Assembly (NCBI RefSeq): GCF_013122565.1
Contig: NZ_CP053258.1
From: Escherichia coli
GTDB lineage: Bacteria; Pseudomonadota; Gammaproteobacteria; Enterobacterales; Enterobacteriaceae
DNA: 64,000 bases
Strand: one strand, 5' to 3'
The notes below the pieces were generated by a model that was not told where the DNA came from, made no database searches, and saw only the letters and a program-made list of their open reading frames with translations. The translations under genes were made by a program, and so were the position numbers. Shown in pieces: positions 1-37,269 of the stretch. Every line of letters begins with the position of its first letter. Positions within the stretch are counted from its first letter, which is position 1.

Positions 1-277
1 GAGGGATTTACAGACCAGCGGCATAGTGGGGTTGTCAGCCAGTAAGGTGGGATACAGGCACAGTGATCGACATGGTGAGGTCAACGACAAAAAAAATGTT
101 GCCGTTCTGCCAACAGTTCCTGCCAGCATTCGGGCAACGAAGGGTTCTACTGGTGGATACACATACCAGGGGAATAAAGTCGTTTTAGCCTCTCCTTTAG
201 TAATCACCGGGGGTAATGAAATCAGCATCTGCATCCCTCGTCATGCCAGCCATCAATTTCAGTTGCTTATGTCCTGA

Positions 278-805
278 CTAAAAATAAGATGTGATACCCA
301 GGGTGACGATGTCGCTCATACGTCTTAGTTTCAGCTTGTACATAATGTTGAATTTCTGAATCTTTAATGTTTGTTGCGAAATATTGAGCGTCGACGTGAT
401 ATTGCTTTCATTTTTATTTTTCAGAATCAGTTGCATAATTTTGAACTGATTATGTGAAAAACATAATTCTGAATTCTTATGGGGCAAGTGTTTACCATAA
501 GTAATCTCAAGAAGATTTTTGATACTTTCTTTGCGGCTGACAAAATAAATAGGCGCTTTAGCTTTTAGTTTACTGATGTGATAAGGTGCCAAAACAATAA
601 TTCTCTCGGCATCTAATTTCTCCAGAAATTTAATCGCTTCTTCATCAAGGATATGATTGTGATAGGTATCAATGATAACCTTGAAGGGTTTATTGCCTAC
701 TTTTTTGATCTCTGACAGGGAATTGATTTTTATCATTTCGTGATTATCTTTCAACTGCCAAAAGCCCTGTAAAAGAAAAGAATCTTTCGTCATGAGAAAA
801 ATCAT
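278..805 (-). CDS. gadE: LuxR-family acid-resistance transcriptional activator GadE (175 aa; ORF track extends to 883 but the conserved start is MIFLMTKDSF)
   Basis: Translation matches GadE over its full length as recalled; C-terminal LuxR-type HTH; synteny with hdeD/hdeAB. Confidence 0.9.
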   Translation of the reverse strand: MIFLMTKDSFLLQGFWQLKDNHEMIKINSLSEIKKVGNKPFKVIIDTYHNHILDEEAIKFLEKLDAERIIVLAPYHISKLKAKAPIYFVSRKESIKNLLEITYGKHLPHKNSELCFSHNQFKIMQLILKNKNESNITSTLNISQQTLKIQKFNIMYKLKLRRMSDIVTLGITSYF

Positions 806-1603
806 AACTTGCTCCTTAGCCGTTATCGTTTCGAACATGTCATCCTTTTCATTATTTACATCCTTGTCCGAATCGTTGTTCAATATAGTAAACGCCTATA
901 AGAACTTTGCCCTTCGTGAACTAATACGTCTATTAACACTAATCAATACTTCAGATTTATCCATCACGCACTCCATATATTGATCCTAAGTAAAATTCCT
1001 GGTTGTTATCAATTTGTAAACAGTGAACAAAAAGTTAACGTTTGCGGATTACTGCCCAAGAATAAGTTATCAATAACCAGTTTGTGATCTCTGAAGAATA
1101 TTACTAAAGTTAAAATGTAATCCGATTTAAATATCGAGTCTCCTTGTTTCGACTTAAGCTGGCAATTGGATTGCCAGCTTTCTTTTAACGCATTGAAATT
1201 ACCTGAGTAAATAACGCATTCATGTCTTCAGGTTTTTATATAGCGTCTGGAGACACGGATATTTATGCAATGTAATCAACGCCAGTTGCAATAAAATGAA
1301 CCCGGATTACTTATTTAACCGCCCATATCATCAACGCTTACGGAACTCTTTGTTCACTTTCCCACAGCACTTTTAAAACATTAAACCTGACTACGGAAAA
1401 TATCAGCCATGATAATGTTTGAAATGGCTAATTTGCCATGGAATGAAAAAATTTAGATTAAATTCAGTAGGTTGAAATAATCACCAGCAGGTGATTATTT
1501 CAATGATAGTGCGAAAATGATCTGCAACGCTGTGAAGCGGAGAGAGTATTAATTAGATCATAGTCACATCAAGTGACTATGATCCAGATGACAACCGGGA
1601 TAA
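806..1603. promoter_or_regulatory. Long gadE upstream control region / hdeD-gadE intergenic (~800 bp, AT-rich, no convincing ORF)
   Basis: Non-coding AT-rich stretch between divergent-convergent AFI genes; established knowledge that gadE has an unusually large multi-promoter control region (an antisense sRNA, ArrS, is reported here in K-12 but I cannot place it precisely). Confidence 0.5.
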
Positions 1604-2176
1604 TTATTGCTGCTTAACGAACAAACTGGCGAAGCTGAACAGGCTGGCGGCGCTAAATATCAGTTCAATTCCCACCAGTGTCGAAACCAGCGTTACAGAC
1701 ACCATCGGCGTTGCACCAAGGAATATCCAGGCAATGACGATATCCAGCACACCAATAACGAGCTGTAGCCAGCTGCCTTTCATTGAACGCTGACGATACC
1801 AACTCATCAGGCGAATAACCCCTGCAACACAGAACAAACCGGCAATAAATGCCGCTATGGCAAAAATGCCCAGCTCCGGTGCGCGGATGAAGAAATAGCC
1901 GATCAATAAATAGGCGACTGCGACGAGGAAACCGGATAATACCGGCCAGAAATTATGACTGCGGTTGCTGAATAATCCAACAATAAGCGCAATGCCCGAG
2001 CAGATTAATAATGCACCCACTACCGTGCTTAAAATATCGCCAGAGACGAACGGGAAACTGATACACAGCAACCCGACGATAAACAGCAGCACGGCAATAA
2101 ACTGGATTGCTCTGCGATGTTTTTTAAGCATCTCCAGATCAAACTTCAAAATTGTTGCCTTATCTATATATAACAT
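1604..2176 (-). CDS. hdeD: Acid-resistance inner membrane protein HdeD (190 aa)
   Basis: Multi-TM hydrophobic translation matching HdeD; position divergent from hdeA. Confidence 0.9.
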   Translation of the reverse strand: MLYIDKATILKFDLEMLKKHRRAIQFIAVLLFIVGLLCISFPFVSGDILSTVVGALLICSGIALIVGLFSNRSHNFWPVLSGFLVAVAYLLIGYFFIRAPELGIFAIAAFIAGLFCVAGVIRLMSWYRQRSMKGSWLQLVIGVLDIVIAWIFLGATPMVSVTLVSTLVGIELIFSAASLFSFASLFVKQQ

Positions 2177-2430
2177 AGAACCACCCTATAAAATTAAGAA
2201 GAAAATCCCCTGCTATCAATCTATGCCAAAAACGCGTCTAAGAATGCAGTCGATTTAATAAAAATTTCCTAATTACAGTATCTGATGCATCTGTAACTCA
2301 TTGTATTGAAATAAAAATATCTGATTTTGATATTTTCTATCAACATGACATATACAGAAAACCAGGTTATAACCTCAGTGTCGAAATTGATTCGTGACGG
2401 CTCTTTCACTTTATAGTTGAGGATATTACG

Positions 2431-2763
2431 ATGAAAAAAGTATTAGGCGTTATTCTTGGTGGTCTGCTTCTTCTGCCAGTTGTGAGCAATGCAGCGGATG
2501 CGCAAAAAGCAGCTGATAACAAAAAACCGGTCAACTCCTGGACCTGTGAAGATTTCCTGGCTGTGGATGAATCCTTCCAGCCAACTGCAGTTGGTTTTGC
2601 TGAAGCGCTGAACAACAAAGATAAACCAGAAGATGCGGTTTTAGATGTTCAGGGTATTGCAACCGTAACCCCAGCTATCGTTCAGGCTTGTACTCAGGAT
2701 AAACAAGCCAACTTTAAAGATAAAGTTAAAGGCGAGTGGGACAAAATTAAGAAAGATATGTAA
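2431..2763 (+). CDS. hdeA: Periplasmic acid-stress chaperone HdeA (110 aa, signal peptide)
   Basis: Translation MKKVLGVILGGLLLLPVVSNA... matches HdeA; followed by hdeB. Confidence 0.95.
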   Translation: MKKVLGVILGGLLLLPVVSNAADAQKAADNKKPVNSWTCEDFLAVDESFQPTAVGFAEALNNKDKPEDAVLDVQGIATVTPAIVQACTQDKQANFKDKVKGEWDKIKKDM

Positions 2764-2878
2764 TTCCGGGAATGCGTTACATCGTACTTCCTTGCATATT
2801 GAACAGGCCGGAATATCTTCTTAAAAAGCAGCTATTCCTCCTGTTCATATATAATCTCTATATTGAATGGGTTACAAA

Positions 2879-3205
2879 ATGAATATTTCATCTCTCCGTA
2901 AAGCGTTTATTTTTATGGGCGCTGTAGCGGCTTTGTCACTGGTAAACGCACAATCTGCGCTGGCAGCCAATGAATCCGCTAAAGATATGACTTGCCAGGA
3001 ATTTATTGATCTGAATCCAAAAGCAATGACACCGGTTGCATGGTGGATGCTGCATGAAGAAACAGTATATAAAGGTGGCGATACTGTTACTTTAAATGAA
3101 ACCGATCTCACTCAAATTCCTAAAGTGATCGAATACTGCAAGAAAAACCCGCAGAAAAATTTGTATACCTTCAAAAATCAAGCATCTAATGACTTGCCGA
3201 ATTAA
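2879..3205 (+). CDS. hdeB: Periplasmic acid-stress chaperone HdeB (108 aa from MNISSLRK)
   Basis: Translation matches HdeB; signal peptide; ORF-track start at 2867 is probably 12 nt too long. Confidence 0.9.
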   Translation: MNISSLRKAFIFMGAVAALSLVNAQSALAANESAKDMTCQEFIDLNPKAMTPVAWWMLHEETVYKGGDTVTLNETDLTQIPKVIEYCKKNPQKNLYTFKNQASNDLPN

Positions 3206-3268
3206 TGAGGTACAAGTAAAAAGGAGTAGCAAGTTGAGCCATCTTGCTGCTCCTTTTTGCATTTTTAT

Positions 3269-3916
3269 ATGACAGCAGAATTTATTATACGTCTTATACT
3301 CGCGGCAATTGCCTGTGGCGCTATTGGCATGGAAAGGCAAATGCGCGGCAAAGGAGCAGGGTTACGCACACATGTATTAATTGGCATGGGAAGCGCCCTG
3401 TTTATGATTGTTTCGAAATATGGTTTTGCTGACGTGCTGTCTTTAGATCACGTCGGACTGGACCCCAGCCGTATTGCTGCTCAGGTGGTGACGGGCGTCG
3501 GGTTTATCGGTGCAGGTAACATTCTCGTTCGTAACCAAAATATTGTAGGTCTCACGACGGCAGCGGATATCTGGGTGACCGCCGCCATTGGTATGGTTAT
3601 TGGCAGCGGTATGTACGAACTGGGTATTTATGGTTCAGTGATGACCTTGCTGGTGCTGGAAGTCTTCCATCAATTAACCTTCCGCCTGATGAACAAAAAT
3701 TACCATTTACAGCTGACATTAGTGAACGGTAATACGGTATCAATGCTCGACTGGTTTAAGCAGCAAAAAATAAAAACGGATTTAGTTTCGTTGCAGGAAA
3801 ATGAAGATCATGAAGTGGTCGCCATTGATATCCAGCTTCATGCCACAACGTCGATAGAAGATCTGTTGCGATTATTAAAAGGTATGGCAGGGGTGAAAGG
3901 CGTTTCAATTAGCTAA
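3269..3916 (+). CDS. yhiD: MgtC-family inner membrane protein YhiD (215 aa)
   Basis: Translation from MTAEFIIRL... matches YhiD; hydrophobic N-terminal MgtC-like domain. Confidence 0.85.
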   Translation: MTAEFIIRLILAAIACGAIGMERQMRGKGAGLRTHVLIGMGSALFMIVSKYGFADVLSLDHVGLDPSRIAAQVVTGVGFIGAGNILVRNQNIVGLTTAADIWVTAAIGMVIGSGMYELGIYGSVMTLLVLEVFHQLTFRLMNKNYHLQLTLVNGNTVSMLDWFKQQKIKTDLVSLQENEDHEVVAIDIQLHATTSIEDLLRLLKGMAGVKGVSIS

Positions 3917-3957
3917 TCTGTGTGGCAGCGTAGTCAGACTCACCGTAAGCCTGAAAT

Positions 3958-4488
3958 TCACACCAGATAATCAATATGCTGATGGCGTACCAGCTCATTG
4001 ATCCGCTTAAGATTGAGGATCATCATGATATTGTGTTTATGGCAGTAGAACGTTTTTAGCGATATTTTCAGTTTCTCCAGAATATCTTCCGTTGTCATTT
4101 GATTCGCAATGCAGCTCAGAACCTGATGTTGCTTACGCGAAAGTGACACAGCCGCTTCAGGCACAGAGCAGTAACTGCCATTGATGAGTGCGACAAAATC
4201 AATGATAGTGATAGTCCGCGGAACAAAGGTCACCGGTACTTTCCCCAGACAGCGTTTAATATTAAAGGGGGAGAAAATAATTACATGGACAGGTTTTAAT
4301 CGTTCAATTTGAGTGAGAAAATTAGAATGAAATACATTATTCATTAATGTATCAATAATGACGAAGGCATTCTGATGCAACATTACGTCGATCTCTTCTT
4401 CGTTCTGTATATGAACGACATTACCTTTACTCAGAATGTTTTTCATCGCGGTGAAGAACATCGTATCCCTGGTAATTATAAGAAACAT
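3958..4488 (-). CDS. dctR: LuxR-family regulator DctR/YhiF (176 aa)
   Basis: 176-aa ORF with C-terminal LuxR HTH (…LSRKQHQVLSCIANQMTTEDILEKLKISLKTFYCHKHNIMMILNLKR); synteny between yhiD and slp. Confidence 0.85.
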   Translation of the reverse strand: MFLIITRDTMFFTAMKNILSKGNVVHIQNEEEIDVMLHQNAFVIIDTLMNNVFHSNFLTQIERLKPVHVIIFSPFNIKRCLGKVPVTFVPRTITIIDFVALINGSYCSVPEAAVSLSRKQHQVLSCIANQMTTEDILEKLKISLKTFYCHKHNIMMILNLKRINELVRHQHIDYLV

Positions 4489-4643
4489 AACCGACTCCTG
4501 GTGCAGACATTAACTTTATAATCAGTTTGCCAAAGGTAATTAACAGGACAGGGCTTATAATAATATCAGTTAGCTTACTGTGTATTAATTGGATGTAATG
4601 CATGATGCAGATACTGGGAAAGCACCTGCATCTTTCGGTGGTG

Positions 4644-5210
4644 TTATTTGACCAGCTCAGGTGTTACCTGACTCACTGCATTGGTGTAGTAAGGCACGCC
4701 CCAGCCCGGTTCCGGCCAGAATGCACCATAGCCGTAATCCCACAGGTTATAGGTGGTATTAACCACTTCTCTCAAATGCCACACCTGGATGCCCTGCATA
4801 TTCACTTCCAGGAAGTTATACGGGACTTTATTGATAAAGCCAGGTTGTTCACCCTGAATGGTGCCGAGGATGGTAACAAAGTGATTACGATAGTTCACTG
4901 GATCAAGGAAGCCGCTTTGTCTGGCGAGCAGTCGGCCCTGATAGTTGGCTTCAATATCAGGCTTCGCATAGCTATCCAACGGTAATACAGCGATTTCTAA
5001 CAACGTATCCGTTTTGCCATTGATAACGTTGATAACCTTCCCACCAAAGCGCGCTTGTTGACCAACATATAACCCCGGCTGGTTATGAACAGCAACAAAA
5101 CTTTTTTGAATATCAGGTTGGTTATTGCCTTTGATATTTTGCGGAATTGAACTACATGCGGCAAGCAAAAATGAAAGGCTGAGGATGAGTGCACCTTTTG
5201 TCATGTTCAT
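4644..5210 (-). CDS. slp: Starvation-inducible outer membrane lipoprotein Slp (188 aa from MNMTKGALILSLSFLLAAC)
   Basis: Lipoprotein signal with lipobox LLAAC; matches Slp. Confidence 0.85.
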   Translation of the reverse strand: MNMTKGALILSLSFLLAACSSIPQNIKGNNQPDIQKSFVAVHNQPGLYVGQQARFGGKVINVINGKTDTLLEIAVLPLDSYAKPDIEANYQGRLLARQSGFLDPVNYRNHFVTILGTIQGEQPGFINKVPYNFLEVNMQGIQVWHLREVVNTTYNLWDYGYGAFWPEPGWGVPYYTNAVSQVTPELVK

Positions 5211-5457
5211 GTTACTATCCTTATCAACAAATATTAAAACCATAATAGATATTTCTTTATAGTTTTCATCTGATTCTGAGGCGATATGCCTGATAGTAAC
5301 GTAAACCTGTCTGATGTTTATATCCTTTCTATTTAGGTGAACTCAGTTAATTTTGGGGCATGACATGAGTATCCATCGCCCCATAATATAGCGCTTTGTT
5401 TTAAAAATACATAAAATCTATTTTTATTCAATGATCATAAAGTACTAATGTTAAACA

Positions 5458-6681
5458 TTATGGTATTATATTCTGATAATGATTTGATAAGCGAATTCTT
5501 TTGCCTGTTGGTATTTCTATTTCCACCCCATAATTTATATCTTTTTCATTAGGGAGTGGCCTCTTTAAATATGGAGTGTGTGACATTTTTTTTGGGTTAA
5601 GCGTCTCGTATTGAAATACTTCGAATTGATATTCAGACATTTCTGCCCATGTTTGAATTTTATTGTATCGAGAAAGTGTCGTAAAGGCTTTAACTTGCTT
5701 ATAACATTCTTTTTTGAATTCTTGCTGATATTTTAATATGTTGTTGTATGAAAGATTGGTTATCCTGGCCTCTAAAAATTTAATTATTGTCGAAGCAATT
5801 TCCGCTTTTGCTCGTAAAAAGTTGTCATTAATGGTTAATAATGTTGAAAATAAACCTTCGATTTGTTTGTCAATATATTGTTCATCTTTATGTGATTTGG
5901 GGGTAGGGTGTTCCTTATGTGAAAAAATAGTGTCACATAAATTTGCGTCAGTGAAATTAATATTAAGTAGATCTTCGAAATAAAACCTTGACAAGGTCAG
6001 AACGAACCCGGACAGGTTCTGTCCTGTCATATTGAAATCAATAAAGTTGGTTCCGGCAAAGACTTTCATCCTGTTTTTATTTTCACTGTGCTCAAGATAT
6101 AACTTCGTCATTTTTTGATACAGACTTTGAATATCTTTTATATTAGTTGGTAAGTCAGCTCGTTGTTCAGCAATAAAATTAGTATCTGAAAACATGGTTT
6201 GGACACAGAATGTTATGGGTATTCCCTCTTCTACGCTAATTTTAGTTATGATTGCCTTGTCGGGTTTAGGATTAGCGACAACAATGATTCGACATTCAGC
6301 ACTTTTGTTCTTTTCGTATCTAATGTTACTAATTTGATTAAGTATTTCCTGTGCCTGCCGCGTAGGTGGTGTCGAACTTATCGATTCAATGTTAGTAATA
6401 AGACTTACAAGTTGAGCCACAACTTTGGAGTAGTCTGCATTTGTATATTTGGTGTTCGTGCGGCACGCATAAATTTGTGGGAGGTGTTGCCGCGCTAAAT
6501 CATATTGTTTAGGGTTGTATCCTTCTCCAGAGAATGTGGAATTAATGGGTTGTTGTTCTTCCCGATTATCACAAGGCCACATCGGTGTGTCTGGTGTTTT
6601 AACATTGTCGGTATCTGTTGTGCGGTTATAAATATCGCCGTGATATGTATTTATCATACCTGGGGTAAAGTCAATTGACAT
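5458..6681 (-). CDS. yhiS: Uncharacterized protein YhiS, intact 407-aa form
   Basis: Position between slp and arsC, where K-12 carries yhiS interrupted by IS5; long uninterrupted AT-rich ORF; no IS5 sequence here. Confidence 0.6.
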
Positions 6682-7139
6682 AACATTCCTTATTTGTGAT
6701 CTATTTCGCTAAATTTTTGTAAATAGGAGAATTAGAGCAGGAATGTATTTTCTTCTACGCAGAAATAAACATAATGCGTCATATCTTCCTGATATAATTA
6801 CCTTTGACTTCCCTTTTATCTCCACCCGGTAATATTTGTGTATAAAAAAGGGTATTGATAGTATCGTAAAGGAAAACGTTAACAACTATCAAAAAGCGCT
6901 CATTTTAAAAAGTTATGATGTTCTCCGATAGTGTGTGAAGTGATATTTTTGTGATGTTTTAGATGTGTAATAATAAAATGGGTTAAGGTATCTTATAATT
7001 ATTGAATAATTTGTTGTGTAAAGCACTGATAAATCATAATCCAGTACGTCTTTAAACTGCTGCACTGTATCGCTGATAACTAAGCAGCTCATTGATACAC
7101 CATGCTGGACGCGATAATTGGAATCTCACGCAGGGAGTA

Positions 7140-7265
7140 ATGTGTAAATAGCAAAATCGCCTGATGCGCTACGCCTGTCAGGCCTACAAATAACATACAA
7201 TTAATTGAATTTTCATCACTTTGTAGGTCGGATAAGACGCGCCAGCGTCGCATCCGACATAAATA
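7140..7265. repeat. REP/BIME-type palindromic units in the yhiS-arsC intergenic
   Basis: gcctgatgcgctacgcctgtcaggcctaca and gtaggtcggataagacgcgccagcgtcgcatccgaca are typical enterobacterial REP sequences. Confidence 0.75.
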
Positions 7266-7306
7266 AAGCGCACTTTTCTAACAACCTGTGGGGGGATATA
7301 GCCGCT

Positions 7307-7732
7307 TTATTTCAGGCGATTACCCGCTTCATCAACCACTTTCTCGCCGTCTTCCTTGGTGAACGCGCCTTGTTGCGCATCTGGCAGAATTTCCAGCACC
7401 ACTTCTGAAGGGCGGCACAGGCGAGTTCCCAGCGGCGTCACCACAATCGGGCGATTAATCAGAATCGGGTGCTGAAGCATAAAGTCGATTAACCGATCGT
7501 CAGTAAATTTATCTTCTGCAAGGCCCAGTTCCTCATACGGCTCGACGTTTTTACGCAGCAGCGCGCGTACGGTAATCCCCATATCGGCAATCAGTTTGAC
7601 CAGTTCATCACGCGTCGGTGGGGTTTCCAGATAATAGACAATGGTCGGTTCTGTGCCGCTGTTGCGGATCATCTCCAGCGTATTTCGCGATGTGCCGCAG
7701 GCCGGGTTGTGATAAATGGTAATGTTGCTCAT
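7307..7732 (-). CDS. arsC: Arsenate reductase ArsC (141 aa)
   Basis: Translation MSNITIYHNPACGTSRNTLEMIRN... with catalytic Cys in the CGTSR motif. Confidence 0.9.
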   Translation of the reverse strand: MSNITIYHNPACGTSRNTLEMIRNSGTEPTIVYYLETPPTRDELVKLIADMGITVRALLRKNVEPYEELGLAEDKFTDDRLIDFMLQHPILINRPIVVTPLGTRLCRPSEVVLEILPDAQQGAFTKEDGEKVVDEAGNRLK

Positions 7733-7744
7733 ATCAATATCTCA

Positions 7745-9034
7745 TTACAAAGTGAAAGAGAGACGTAGCGCCAGCGCAGCCAGCGTCACAAACAGCACAG
7801 GCAGGGTCATGATAATCCCTGTACGGAAGTAATATCCCCAGCTGATAGTCATATTCTTCTGCGAAAGTACGTGCAGCCAGAGTAGCGTTGCCATGCTACC
7901 AATTGGGGTAATTTTCGGTCCCAAATCGCAGCCAATCACGTTGGCATAAACCATCGCTTCTTTGATAACGCCAGATGCCGTGCTGCCATCAATGGACAAT
8001 GCGCCAACCAGTACCGTCGGCATATTGTTCATAATAGAAGAGAGGAAGGCGGTAAGGAATCCGGTGCCGAGCGTCGCGGCCCACAGGCCGTTATCCGCCA
8101 GCACGTTGAGTACGCCAGAAAGATATTCCGTTAACCCGGCATTGCGCAGGCCATAAACCACCAGATACATGCCGAGCGAGAAGATGACAATCTGCCAGGG
8201 CGCACCGCGCAGCACTTTACCCGTATTAATCGCATGACCGCGTTTAGCGACGACAAATAATATCAGCGCACCCACTGCCGCAATGGCGCTGACCGGAATG
8301 CCGAGCGGTTCCAGGACGAAAAATCCCACCAGCAGAAGCAGTAAAACAACCCAGCCAGTTTTGAACGTAGCAGGATCTTTAATCGCTTCTGCGGGAGATT
8401 TCAGCAGCGCCATGTCGTAGTTCTGCGGAATATCTTTGCGGAAATAGAGATGCAGCATCATCAGCGTGGCAACAATTGCGGCGATATCCACCGGCACCAT
8501 CACCGAGGCATATTCGCGAAAGCCGAGGCCAAAGAAATCTGCGGAAACGATATTCACCAGGTTGGAGACAATAAGTGGCAGGCTGGCGGTATCGGCAATG
8601 AATCCGGCCGCCATCACGAACGCCAGCGTCGTGCCTTTACTGAACCCTAAAGCCAGCAGCATAGCGATGACAATCGGTGTCAAAATAAGCGCCGCGCCAT
8701 CATTGGCAAACAGGGCGGCAACGGCGGCACCGAGCAGGACAATCCAGGTAAACAGCAAGCGACCACGACCATTACCCCAGCGTGAGACGTGCAGCGCCGC
8801 CCATTCAAAAAAGCCGGACTCATCCAGCAGCAGGCTGATGATAATGACGGCAATAAACGCAGCCGTCGCGTTCCAGACGATATTCCACACCACCGGAATA
8901 TCACCCGGATGAACCATGCCCGTAATTAACGCCAGAACTGCGCCGAGCGTTGCACTCCAGCCGATGCCTAAACCTTTCGGCTGCCAGATAACCAATACGA
9001 TGGTCAGGACAAAGATAGCGCCTGCCAGTAACAT
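7745..9034 (-). CDS. arsB: Arsenite efflux pump ArsB (429 aa from [13 protein letters not shown] track extends 7 codons further upstream)
   Basis: Polytopic membrane protein matching ArsB; operon arsRBC. Confidence 0.9.
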
Positions 9035-33714: not shown

Positions 33715-33990
33715 ATGAGAACCAAGGTACAGGCTTTACGGAAGAAACAAAAAAATACATTGGATCAAATATTTAAAACTCCTGTTCCTCAAGGGATCAA
33801 GTGGTCTGATATAGAGTCACTGGTTAAAGCATTAGGCGGAGAAATTAAGGAAGGAAGAGGTTCGCGTTGTAAGTTCATACTAAATATGAGCGTTGCGTGT
33901 TTCCATCGGCCTCATCCGTCGCCAGATACCGATAAAGGCGCTGTAGAAAGCGTGCGTGACTGGTTACTAAGTATAGGGGTAAAACCATGA
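33715..33990 (+). CDS. Putative HicA-like (YcfA family) type II toxin, 91 aa
   Basis: Small basic protein with a ...GSRCKF...FHRPHP...LLSIGV... pattern resembling HicA mRNA interferases; 4-nt overlap (atga) with the following RHH gene. Confidence 0.5.
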   Translation: MRTKVQALRKKQKNTLDQIFKTPVPQGIKWSDIESLVKALGGEIKEGRGSRCKFILNMSVACFHRPHPSPDTDKGAVESVRDWLLSIGVKP

Positions 33991-34346
33991 TCAAACTGAA
34001 GACGCCAAACTCTATGGAGATTGCCGGGCAACCTGCTGTTATCACTTACGTGCCAGAACTGAATGCATTTCGTGGCAAATTCCTGGGCTTGTCAGGTTAT
34101 TGTGATTTTGTCTCTGACAGCATTCAGGGGCTGCAAAAAGAAGGGGAACTTTCCCTGCTAGAGTATCTTGAGGATTGTAAAGCTGCGGGTATTGAGCCGT
34201 ATGCGCGTACAGAAAAGATTAAGACCTTTACGTTACGCTATCCAGAATCGCTGAGTGAACGCCTTAATAATGCGGCTGCGCAGCAACAAGTCTCTGTTAA
34301 TACCTATATTATTGAAACACTGAATGAGCGTTTGAATCATTTATAA
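33987..34346 (+). CDS. Putative HicB-like antitoxin with C-terminal ribbon-helix-helix, 119 aa
   Basis: C-terminal RYPESLSERLNNAAAQQQVSVNTYIIETLNERL is a CopG/RHH-type DNA-binding motif; translationally coupled to the upstream small ORF. Confidence 0.5.
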   Translation: MIKLKTPNSMEIAGQPAVITYVPELNAFRGKFLGLSGYCDFVSDSIQGLQKEGELSLLEYLEDCKAAGIEPYARTEKIKTFTLRYPESLSERLNNAAAQQQVSVNTYIIETLNERLNHL

Positions 34347-34465
34347 ATTTTAGCGGCGTACATTACGCAGAATATCTGCCTTTACAGGATCTATCTATGC
34401 AACTGAACTTAATTTTATAAATTAAGTTCAGTTAATATCTTTTCTTTCCTCGTTTTAGAAATAAC

Positions 34466-37269
<2,804 letters not shown>

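What the first reader, a model, noticed from the sequence alone, without database searches (positions are those of the whole stretch)
33715..34346. HicA/HicB-like two-gene module occupies the site where K-12 has rhsB-yhhH-yhhI
Between yhhJ and nikR, K-12 carries the large RhsB element (recollection). Here there is only a ~0.65-kb cassette of two translationally coupled small genes (atga overlap): a 91-aa basic protein with a HicA/YcfA-like C-terminal pattern (GSRCKF...FHRPHP...LLSIGV) and a 119-aa protein ending in a clear ribbon-helix-helix motif. The toxin-first order and the sizes fit HicAB type II toxin-antitoxin systems. The 91-aa protein has a ~35-residue N-terminal extension and lacks the canonical GSHH histidines at the usual position, so it may be a divergent variant.
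Basis: partly seen in the sequence, partly recalled or inferred. Interest (0 to 1): 0.45.

Follow-up and report, generated by a model that had tools for sequence, protein, structure and literature searches.

The report
Annotated HicAB toxin-antitoxin cassette, His-less clade
The two small overlapping genes between yhhJ and nikR are an ordinary, already annotated HicA/HicB toxin-antitoxin pair carried by about 38% of complete E. coli genomes; the one unusual point is that its toxin clade has arginine where studied HicA toxins have their catalytic histidine.

Summary
The window has a 91-aa ORF (33715-33990) and a 119-aa ORF (33987-34346) that overlap by ATGA. They sit in 817 bp of low-GC DNA between the yhhJ stop and the nikR stop, exactly where K-12 carries rhsB-yhhH-yrhC'-yhhI.

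Both proteins pass Pfam's curated cut-offs (HicA_toxin, HicB). RefSeq names them HicA and HicB family proteins in 2071 of 5426 complete E. coli genomes. A 79%-identical pair is listed in Gerdes' published "Class 4" hicAB catalogue.

AlphaFold models support both assignments:
- **Antitoxin:** a HicB-like N-terminal domain followed by a ribbon-helix-helix.

Four TGAnnTCATA repeats cover the promoter. The core TGAnnTCA motif recurs upstream of homologues in Citrobacter and Serratia.

This is a large clade (1114 clusters) with a conserved helical N-terminal extension. It has an almost invariant G-S-R in place of the catalytic G-S-H, and a clade-specific His64 predicted on the neighbouring strand. 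No experimental work on this clade was found.

In 792 E. coli genomes hicA carries a stop at codon 2 while hicB is intact.

Verdict: a known kind that is already annotated, of low to moderate interest.

The parts
33643..34459 (.). Cassette-specific DNA: everything between the yhhJ stop and the point 6 nt from the nikR stop. It is absent from K-12 and has 40-46% GC against 53-58% in the flanks.
   Evidence: BLAST of the window against the K-12 locus; composition profile.
33654..33681 (+). Sigma-70-like promoter, TTGACT-16 nt-TACTAT. This is a consensus match only.
   Evidence: Promoter scan. In the allele found in 792 genomes, the -10 hexamer and repeat 2 are removed by a 14-bp deletion.
33655..33704 (+). 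Putative HicB operator array: four direct TGAnnTCATA repeats at 33655, 33668, 33682 and 33695, spaced 13/14/13 nt. Each holds a TGA-N2-TCA half-palindrome. Repeats 1 and 4 are exact reverse complements in their 8-nt cores.
   Evidence: All four matches to the pattern in the 64-kb window lie here. Repeat finder. The TGAnnTCA core recurs in the same arrangement upstream of hicA in Citrobacter and Serratia. Binding was not tested.
33704..33708 (+). AAGGA Shine-Dalgarno-like sequence, 6 nt upstream of the hicA ATG.
   Evidence: Read directly from the sequence.
33715..33990 (+). hicA: a 91-aa HicA-family protein of the 'long, G-S-R' clade. Residues 1-29 form a helical extension and residues 30-86 form the alpha-beta-beta-beta-alpha dsRBD-like core. 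Key residues are G49-S50-R51 and H64-R65-P66-H67-P68.
33987..34346 (+). hicB: a 119-aa HicB-family antitoxin. The N-terminal domain has four strands and a long helix (about residues 9-67). The C-terminal part is an Arc-like ribbon-helix-helix (about residues 76-118).
   Evidence: Pfam PF05534, 56.7 bits against a cut-off of 21. AF2 pLDDT 87. Foldseek top hits are BpsHicB, EcHicB and YpHicB3. The profile aligns to Arc and AmrZ. PHROG 9151 'HicB-like antitoxin'.
34401..34443 (+). Perfect 15-bp inverted repeat with a 3-nt loop, followed by a T-rich tail. It is a likely intrinsic terminator of hicAB, facing the convergent nikR.
   Evidence: Terminator scan and inverted-repeat finder. Function was not tested.

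Best explanation
This is a chromosomal type II toxin-antitoxin cassette of the HicAB family. [quoted passage not shown] It sits in a variable site between yhhJ and nikR.

Proposed working (the anatomy is shown; each functional step is inferred by homology):
1. A sigma-70 promoter drives a bicistronic, translationally coupled hicA-hicB mRNA.
2. HicB dimerises through its RHH and binds the four TGAnnTCATA repeats that overlap the -35, the -10 and the leader, so the operon represses itself.
3. The N-terminal domain of HicB caps the RNA-binding face of HicA and keeps it inactive.
4. When HicB is depleted, free HicA binds and most likely cleaves cellular RNA, which arrests growth.

The toxin belongs to a large, mobile sub-clade also found on plasmids and temperate phages. 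The clade differs from every characterised HicA in two ways:
- It has a conserved helical N-terminal extension.
- It has Arg51 at the start of strand beta2, where characterised HicAs have the essential catalytic His. An almost invariant His64 is predicted on the adjacent strand, next to the canonical P-H67-P.

I infer that His64, assisted by Arg51, has taken over the catalytic role. The protein would then still be an RNase toxin with a re-arranged active site.
For: **Family assignment**
- Both proteins exceed Pfam's curated cut-offs.
- RefSeq annotates them as HicA and HicB family proteins in 2071 of 5426 complete genomes.
- PHROG 'toxin' and 'HicB-like antitoxin' families match over the full length.
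- Clade members are listed in Table S1 of PMC10865869 as Class 4 (and Class 3) hicAB, including a 79%-identical Klebsiella pair.

**Fold**
- The HicA model has pLDDT 96.5 with the alpha-beta-beta-beta-alpha core.
- The HicB model has pLDDT 87, and solved HicB structures are its top Foldseek hits.
- The C-terminus aligns to Arc and AmrZ.

**Operon logic**
- The ATGA overlap is conserved in Citrobacter, Serratia and Azospirillum loci.
- All four TGAnnTCATA sites of the 64-kb window lie in the 50-bp promoter region, and the core motif is conserved in two other genera.

**Selection**
- dN is 0.09-0.17 with saturated dS.
- G49, S50, R51, H64, P66 and H67 are each kept in at least 136 of 142 representatives that share 50% identity or less.

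**Toxin-like population signature**
- Independent hicA lesions occur with an intact, identical HicB: a stop at codon 2 in 792 genomes, a frameshift at codons 49/50, and an IS66 insertion.

**Mobility**
- The clade is found on 223 plasmid records and 51 phage records.
Against: - No experiment on this locus or this clade was found.
- The residue shown to be essential for toxicity or RNase activity in B. pseudomallei, Y. pestis, S. pneumoniae and N. gonorrhoeae HicA is Arg here (papers read; alignment). RNase activity therefore cannot simply be transferred by homology.
- The proximity of His64 to Arg51 is deduced from the predicted strand register (beta2 51-56, beta3 59-64). It was not measured in coordinates.
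- There is no NCBIfam equivalog and no PADLOC match.
- The promoter and terminator are consensus matches only.
- The frequent nonsense allele could equally mean that the toxin is dispensable and decaying neutrally.
Confidence: 0.8

Rival explanations
1. The pair is a HicAB homologue whose toxin does not cleave RNA. In this view the G-S-R clade HicA acts by stoichiometric RNA binding (for example to mRNA, tmRNA or ribosomal RNA) or on another target. Alternatively it serves mainly as a co-repressor that modulates HicB's DNA binding.
For: Arg replaces the catalytic His in 96% of clade representatives. The dsRBD fold is basically an RNA-binding fold (paper text). In gonococcal HicA the canonical 'PHP' His could be mutated without loss of toxicity, so His67 need not be catalytic.
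Against: His64, Arg65 and His67 are almost invariant and lie next to Arg51. That pattern fits a preserved catalytic centre better than a mere binding surface. The independent hicA knock-outs with hicB retained look like selection against an active toxin.
Confidence: 0.2
2. The cassette works primarily as an anti-phage abortive-infection or defence module rather than as a 'stress' or addiction TA. On this view its presence in a variable chromosomal site reflects defence-gene turnover.
For: The site is polymorphic, with at least three alternative cargos: hicAB, the RhsB element and a PTS-sugar cluster. It is a catalogued Rhs locus. The DNA is low in GC. Homologues occur in temperate phages and plasmids. 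PMC10865869 argues that HicA modules are often defensive.
Against: There is no PADLOC hit. No defence genes flank the cassette, which lies between an ABC-transporter operon and the nik operon. No phage data exist. This rival concerns biological role and is compatible with the best explanation's mechanism.
Confidence: 0.3
3. The cassette is a decaying or domesticated remnant. In this view HicA is no longer toxic in E. coli, and HicB persists as a stand-alone RHH regulator or as an anti-addiction antidote.
For: About 38% of carriers (792 of 2071) have TAA at hicA codon 2 together with a 14-bp operator deletion, yet encode an identical HicB (WP_000593555.1). Frameshift and IS-disrupted alleles also exist.
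Against: In this window and about 1276 other genomes hicA matches the window allele across the G-S-R region; full-length intactness was not checked in each genome. All clade-invariant residues are present. dN is far below dS. Close plasmid-borne homologues that an orphan HicB could neutralise are rare in enterobacteria, with 220 of 223 plasmid hits below 60% identity.
Confidence: 0.12

Closest known systems
Class 4 hicAB modules (Gerdes 2024, mBio, PMC10865869): hicA upstream of a hicB with a C-terminal RHH. Examples are Y. pestis HicA3/HicB3 (PDB 4P78), B. pseudomallei HicAB (6G26) and S. pneumoniae HicAB (5YRZ).
   Same: Gene order and the close linkage or overlap are the same. The toxin has the dsRBD-like fold. 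HicB has an N-terminal domain plus an RHH. Repeats lie in the promoter. Clade members, including a 79%-identical Klebsiella variicola pair, are listed in that paper's Table S1.
   Different: The toxin is 91 aa rather than about 58-66 aa, because of a conserved helical N-terminal extension. It has G-S-R instead of G-S-H at the start of beta2, plus a clade-specific His64. No sequence-level PDB hit was found for the single protein.
E. coli K-12 HicA/HicB (yncN/ydcQ; PDB 6HPB), the founding translation-independent mRNA interferase.
   Different: K-12 HicB has an HTH (Class 3), not an RHH. K-12 HicA has the catalytic His23. The two lie at different chromosomal loci. Sequence similarity is too low for phmmer to detect.
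Phage and plasmid members of the same long-HicA clade (PHROG 8887/9151): Burkholderia phage ST79, Ralstonia phages, and plasmids of Sinorhizobium, Rhizobium, Piscirickettsia and Deinococcus.
   Same: These share the 84-91-aa architecture and about 50% identity over residues 8-91, and they have an adjacent HicB.
   Different: They are carried on mobile replicons, whereas the E. coli copy sits in a fixed chromosomal site that it shares with Citrobacter. The Azospirillum locus shows no TGAnnTCA motifs upstream of hicA.

Membership tests
HicA_toxin homology family (Pfam PF07927) | Match to the family HMM above the curated gathering score | tested here: met
   37.7 bits against a cut-off of 27, E = 2.2e-9, residues 30-80. 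RefSeq names it a HicA family toxin.
HicA_toxin homology family (Pfam PF07927) | [quoted passage not shown] | tested here: met
Characterised HicA mRNA interferases (His-dependent RNases) | Catalytic histidine at the start of strand beta2 in a G-x-H motif (His23 in Ec, His24 in Bps and Ng, His28 in Yp, His36 in Stp) | tested here: not met
   The profile alignment places R51 opposite His24 of BpsHicA (Ala in the crystallised mutant) and opposite His28 of YpHicA3. Arg is present in 136 of 142 clade representatives and His in only 2. The essential role of this His is taken from the papers read.
Characterised HicA mRNA interferases (His-dependent RNases) | Conserved glycine two residues before that position (Gly22 in Bps and Ng) | tested here: met
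   G49 is invariant in alignment A1 and present in 140 of 142 representatives.
Characterised HicA mRNA interferases (His-dependent RNases) | Growth arrest on expression and RNA cleavage in vitro | not testable with these tools
   No experimental report on this locus or clade was found.
HicB antitoxin family (Pfam PF05534, with the HicB N-terminal fold) | Match to the family HMM above the curated gathering score, and a C-terminal DNA-binding domain | tested here: met
   PF05534 scores 56.7 bits against a cut-off of 21, over residues 60-112. The Arc and AmrZ RHH domains align to residues 77-118. AF2 predicts helices 87-99 and 104-118.
HicB antitoxin family (Pfam PF05534, with the HicB N-terminal fold) | N-terminal partial RNase-H-like beta-sheet plus helix domain that binds HicA | tested here: inconclusive
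   The model shows four strands and a long helix. The top Foldseek hits are BpsHicB, EcHicB, YpHicB3 and TTHA0281 with probability about 1.0, but E is only 5e-3 to 0.3 and TM about 0.44. There was no Pfam match to an N-domain model. Complex formation was not modelled.
Class 4 hicAB operon (Gerdes 2024) | hicA immediately upstream of a hicB that carries a C-terminal RHH, in a bicistronic arrangement | tested here: met
   ATGA overlap at 33987-33990. The same -4 overlap is seen in homologous loci. Close homologues are listed as Class 4 in Table S1.
Type II toxin-antitoxin system (general) | Autorepression by the antitoxin at operator repeats in the promoter | tested here: inconclusive
   Four TGAnnTCATA repeats overlap the promoter, and they are the only matches in the window. 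The core motif is conserved in Citrobacter and Serratia. Binding itself was not testable.
Type II toxin-antitoxin system (general) | Labile antitoxin that neutralises a stable toxin by direct binding | not testable with these tools
   This needs co-expression, pull-down and stability assays.

The most novel reading that the evidence does not exclude
The long 'G-S-R' HicA clade is a functionally distinct branch in which the catalytic histidine has moved from the start of strand beta2 to the cross-strand position at the end of beta3 (His64). The branch has 1114 clusters at 50% identity and is found on chromosomes, plasmids and temperate phages. In this reading Arg51 now stabilises the transition state or binds phosphate, and the conserved N-terminal helix adds a new RNA- or partner-binding surface. 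The clade could then differ from classical HicA in substrate or cleavage specificity, and nobody appears to have tested it.
Probability: 0.35. Interest if true: 0.45.

Novelty: already known. Interest (0 to 1): 0.25.

Why it matters
The finding itself matters little. The cassette is recognised by standard profiles, named by RefSeq in more than 2000 E. coli genomes, and close relatives are in a published HicA catalogue. Three things are useful.

- **Untested clade:** it points to a very widespread HicA clade that lacks the histidine every mutational study has found essential. No member of this clade seems to have been tested, so 'HicA family toxin' annotations for it assume an activity that has not been shown.
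- **Natural allelic series:** E. coli offers an intact hicA, a hicA with a stop at codon 2 plus an operator deletion, and a frameshift at the G-S-R codons. All three keep an identical hicB. This is convenient for asking whether the toxin is active and why the antitoxin is kept.
- **Cargo-swapping site:** the yhhJ/nikR junction is a clean three-way site carrying hicAB, the RhsB element or a PTS-sugar cluster.

Tried and rejected
**Searches that found nothing**
- Single-sequence PDB search for the toxin gave no hit. Only the profile search reached HicA structures, at E = 0.03.
- NCBIfam gave no family for HicA and only a sub-threshold BrnA hit for HicB.
- PADLOC gave nothing. Rfam gave nothing in 33400-34700.
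- Literature searches by protein accession and by hicAB+nikR found no study of this locus. A search for PPECC42 returned only the HicAB review, not the primary ExPEC study, so I could not tell which hicAB locus that work used.

**Papers that turned out not to apply**
- The Erwinia amylovora study, in which 'HicA' was non-toxic, concerns a 59-aa + 136-aa pair. That pair is the classical size class, not this clade, so I did not use it.
- The EHEC transcriptome paper reporting hicAB induction does not say which hicAB locus was measured, so I did not use it.

**Ideas considered and dropped**
- *Vertical inheritance from the Escherichia/Citrobacter ancestor.* The site is the same in both. However, hicAB synonymous divergence is saturated while the flanks have dS of about 1.0-1.2, so I leave this open.
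- *An orphan HicB acting as an anti-addiction factor.* Close plasmid homologues are rare, so I demoted it.

**Artefacts and weak results**
- My first regex count suggested 16 'GSG' variants. That was a pattern artefact, and the alignment-based count gives 136 Arg of 142.
- The top hit of the representative search is a 1981-aa repetitive artefact and was ignored.

Full report

Yes. The ORF list and the sequence show a 91-aa ORF at 33715-33990 and a 119-aa ORF at 33987-34346 on the + strand, sharing the four bases ATGA. They lie between the stop of yhhJ (33640-33642) and the stop of the convergent nikR (34466).

The RefSeq record of a 99.9%-identical genome annotates the same two CDSs (WP_001259385.1, 91 aa; WP_000593555.1, 119 aa). 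It names them 'type II toxin-antitoxin system HicA family toxin' and 'HicB family antitoxin'.

MG1655 has nikR-rhsB-yhhH-yrhC'-yhhI-yhhJ here. BLAST of the window against that stretch shows homology ending at 33642 and resuming at 34460. The 817 bp of cassette DNA and the 6.7-kb Rhs element are therefore flush, alternative occupants of the same site. The cassette has 40-46% GC against 53-58% in the flanks.

**2. How common is it, and what else sits at the site?**

- **hicAB:** 2071 of 5426 complete E. coli genomes carry the 632-bp cassette. It is always chromosomal and almost always a single copy per genome.
- **RhsB element:** 2117 genomes carry the K-12-type nikR/rhsB junction.
- **PTS-sugar cluster:** the APEC strain BEN2908 has a third cargo, a 5.9-kb cluster of GntR regulator, PTS IIA/IIB/IIC, FGGY kinase, HPr and aldolase.

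The nikR/yhhJ interval is listed as one of eleven Rhs loci of E. coli in PMC2935791. Citrobacter has hicAB in the same yhhJ/nikR interval. Serratia has it between murJ and argS. An Azospirillum contig has it next to a resolvase and a phage portal gene.

**3. Family assignment**

- **Sequence profiles:**
  - Pfam gives HicA_toxin at 37.7 bits (cut-off 27) over residues 30-80 of the first protein.
  - Pfam gives HicB at 56.7 bits (cut-off 21) over residues 60-112 of the second, with weaker Arc and CopG RHH hits.
  - PHROG families 'toxin' (E = 7e-27, residues 11-91) and 'HicB-like antitoxin' (E = 2e-12) match over the full length.
- **Toxin fold:**
  - AlphaFold2 on a 74-sequence alignment gives pLDDT 96.5.
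  - The model has helices 2-6 and 10-19, followed by an alpha(30-39)-beta(43-46)-beta(51-56)-beta(59-64)-alpha(74-86) core.
- **Antitoxin fold:**
  - The model (pLDDT 87) has four strands and a long helix, followed by two RHH helices.
  - Its best Foldseek hits are B. pseudomallei HicB, E. coli HicB, Y. pestis HicB3 and TTHA0281.
  - Its C-terminus aligns to Arc and AmrZ.
- **Published catalogue:**
  - The architecture is Gerdes' Class 4: hicA first, HicB with an RHH.
  - Table S1 of that paper lists close relatives, for example Klebsiella variicola PIA10432.1/PIA10431.1 with a -4 overlap.

**4. What is unusual**

Single-sequence searches find no solved relative of the toxin. The protein belongs to a distinct clade. 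A full HMMER scan of 1.84 billion cluster representatives finds 1114 clusters at E <= 1e-3 and 263 at E <= 1e-10.

In an alignment of 142 of the best representatives, all carry the N-terminal extension. Conservation across these representatives is as follows.

| Residue | Representatives that keep it (of 142) |
|---|---|
| L16 | 120 |
| F20 | 121 |
| P23 | 137 |
| W30 | 138 |
| G49 | 140 |
| S50 | 139 |
| R51 | 136 |
| H64 | 139 |
| P66 | 139 |
| H67 | 137 |

A profile of the clade aligns its 'G-S-r' to two reference motifs:
- the G-S-(H24A) of the crystallised B. pseudomallei HicA mutant;
- the G-S-H28 of Y. pestis HicA3.

That histidine lies at the start of beta2. It is the residue whose mutation abolishes toxicity or RNase activity in every HicA examined, according to the review PMC11594946 and the gonococcal study PMC12297915.

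Arg51 therefore replaces the catalytic His. The canonical 'P-H-P' after beta3 is kept (H67). In gonococcal HicA the equivalent His40 was dispensable for toxicity.

The clade-specific His64 aligns to Thr in the B. pseudomallei and Y. pestis proteins. With beta2 at 51-56 and beta3 at 59-64 forming a tight hairpin, residue 64 is the cross-strand neighbour of residue 51. Its side chain should therefore point to the same face. This is an inference from strand register. I could not measure it, because model coordinates are not exposed.

In the stored part of Gerdes' table, 'GSH' occurs 318 times and 'GDH' 54 times, while 'HRPHP' occurs 34 times. The clade is thus a catalogued minority. That paper's text has no hit for 'catalytic', 'histidine' or 'active site'.

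**5. Regulation**

A sigma-70-like promoter (TTGACT-16 nt-TACTAT, 33654-33681) is predicted. Four direct repeats of TGAnnTCATA start at 33655, 33668, 33682 and 33695. They cover the -35, the -10 and the leader.

These four are the only matches to that pattern on either strand of the whole 64-kb window, where about two are expected by chance. The 8-nt cores of repeats 1 and 4 are exact reverse complements.

The same TGAnnTCA units recur at comparable distances from the start codon in two other genera, although the surrounding DNA differs:
- Citrobacter: -61, -34 and -21.
- Serratia: -72, -59, -32 and -19.

This is the footprint expected for an RHH autorepressor. Binding itself is inferred.

A perfect 15-bp hairpin with a T-rich tail (34401-34443) is a plausible terminator.

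**6. Selection and allelic variation**

Between E. coli and Citrobacter or Serratia, dN is 0.09-0.17 for both genes and dS is saturated. The flanking yhhJ and nikR have dS of about 1.0-1.2. Both genes are therefore under purifying selection. A simple vertical history of the cassette cannot be claimed.

Within E. coli there are at least three hicA allele types:
- **Window type.** About 1276 genomes match the window allele through the G-S-R region.
- **Stop at codon 2.**
  - 792 genomes carry an allele whose second codon is TAA ('M*TQVQALRKK...').
  - Its promoter has lost 14 bp, namely repeat 2 and the -10 hexamer.
  - RefSeq rescues a 76-aa CDS from a CTG start in this allele.
  - There is no in-frame ATG, GTG or TTG before Met58.
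  - All differences from the window allele lie in the promoter region and the 5' half of hicA. The 3' half of hicA is identical, and the encoded HicB is the same protein (WP_000593555.1), which implies a recombination breakpoint inside hicA.
- **Frameshift at the G-S-R codons.**
  - A minor allele has a frameshift at codons 49/50, giving a 55-aa product.
  - It occurs in 6-7 complete genomes but in many draft assemblies.

One genome has an IS66-family element between hicA and hicB. Repeated loss of the toxin with the antitoxin retained is what one expects of an active TA module, but it does not prove activity.

**7. Mechanism and rivals**

The most likely account (0.8 for 'HicAB-family type II TA module') is as follows:
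1. The two genes are co-transcribed and translationally coupled.
2. HicB dimers repress the promoter through the four repeats.
3. The HicB N-domain masks HicA.
4. Free HicA attacks RNA.

The step that cannot be carried over from characterised homologues is catalysis. I consider an RNase with a re-arranged centre (His64 with Arg51) more likely than a non-catalytic RNA binder. The reason is that the His-Arg-Pro-His cluster is almost invariant across a very deep clade. This remains untested.

A defence (abortive infection) role is compatible with the variable site, the low GC content and the phage and plasmid relatives. It has no direct support: there is no PADLOC hit and no defence genes lie nearby.

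**8. Novelty and verdict**

The cassette is an already annotated member of a well-known family. Standard tools name it, and the published HicA survey lists its relatives.

The residual interest lies in the untested His-less clade and in the natural hicA-null alleles. Interest is 0.25. The most novel reading not excluded is a relocated active site with possibly new specificity. I give it a probability of about 0.35 and an interest of about 0.45 if true.

Noticed in passing
L009:1430-1775 (E. coli 94-3024), equivalent to window 33668-33720: A hicA allele with TAA at codon 2 and a 14-bp deletion that removes operator repeat 2 and the -10 hexamer is present in 792 of 5426 complete E. coli genomes. 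RefSeq annotates a 76-aa 'HicA family toxin' from a CTG start there, which is probably an annotation rescue of a pseudogene.
   Followed up: yes
Alignment A4 (window 33640-33995 against L009): All differences between the window allele and the codon-2-stop allele lie in the promoter and the 5' half of hicA. The 3' half of hicA is identical and the encoded HicB is the same protein accession. This mosaic implies a recombination breakpoint inside hicA.
   Followed up: partly
L011:1615-1680, equivalent to window 33855-33865: A frameshift allele falls exactly at the G49/S50 codons of the conserved G-S-R motif and gives a 55-aa product (P0094). It is rare in complete genomes (6-7) but is listed in 858 index blocks of the large assembly collection.
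   Followed up: partly
L010 (E. coli VTB97074v) 41-3384: An IS66-family element (ISCro1-like, with tnpA/tnpB/transposase) is inserted between hicA and hicB, separating the toxin gene from the antitoxin gene.
   Followed up: no
L013 (APEC BEN2908) 3200-8800: A third alternative cargo occupies the yhhJ/nikR site. It is a 5.9-kb cluster of GntR regulator, PTS IIA/IIB/IIC, FGGY kinase, HPr and class II aldolase, so the site is polymorphic in at least three ways.
   Followed up: partly
window 34401-34433: A perfect 15-bp AT-rich inverted repeat with a 3-nt loop lies inside the cassette-specific DNA between hicB and nikR. It is probably the hicAB terminator, and being palindromic it could also serve nikR.
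   Followed up: partly
hicA and hicB of the window against L003 (Citrobacter): Synonymous divergence of hicA and hicB between E. coli and Citrobacter is saturated, while the adjacent yhhJ and nikR have dS of about 1.0-1.2. The cassette therefore has a deeper or different history than its flanks, even though the insertion site is shared.
   Followed up: partly
P0241 (top hit of the representative search): A 1981-aa 'protein' made of 29 copies of a repeat of roughly 68 residues scored E = 3e-69 against HicA residues 4-55. It looks like a translated DNA repeat array, that is, a low-complexity artefact and not a relative.
   Followed up: partly
PLSDB records NZ_OL790696.1 and NZ_CP134663.1: Two E. 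coli 'plasmids' of 4.8-4.9 Mb in the plasmid collection carry the cassette. Their size suggests they are chromosomes filed as plasmids.
   Followed up: no
window 32434-33642: The mechanical ORF for yhhJ starts at a GTG at 32434 (402 aa). RefSeq annotates 374 aa, which corresponds to a start at about 32518, overlapping the rbbA stop. This is a trivial start-codon difference.
   Followed up: no
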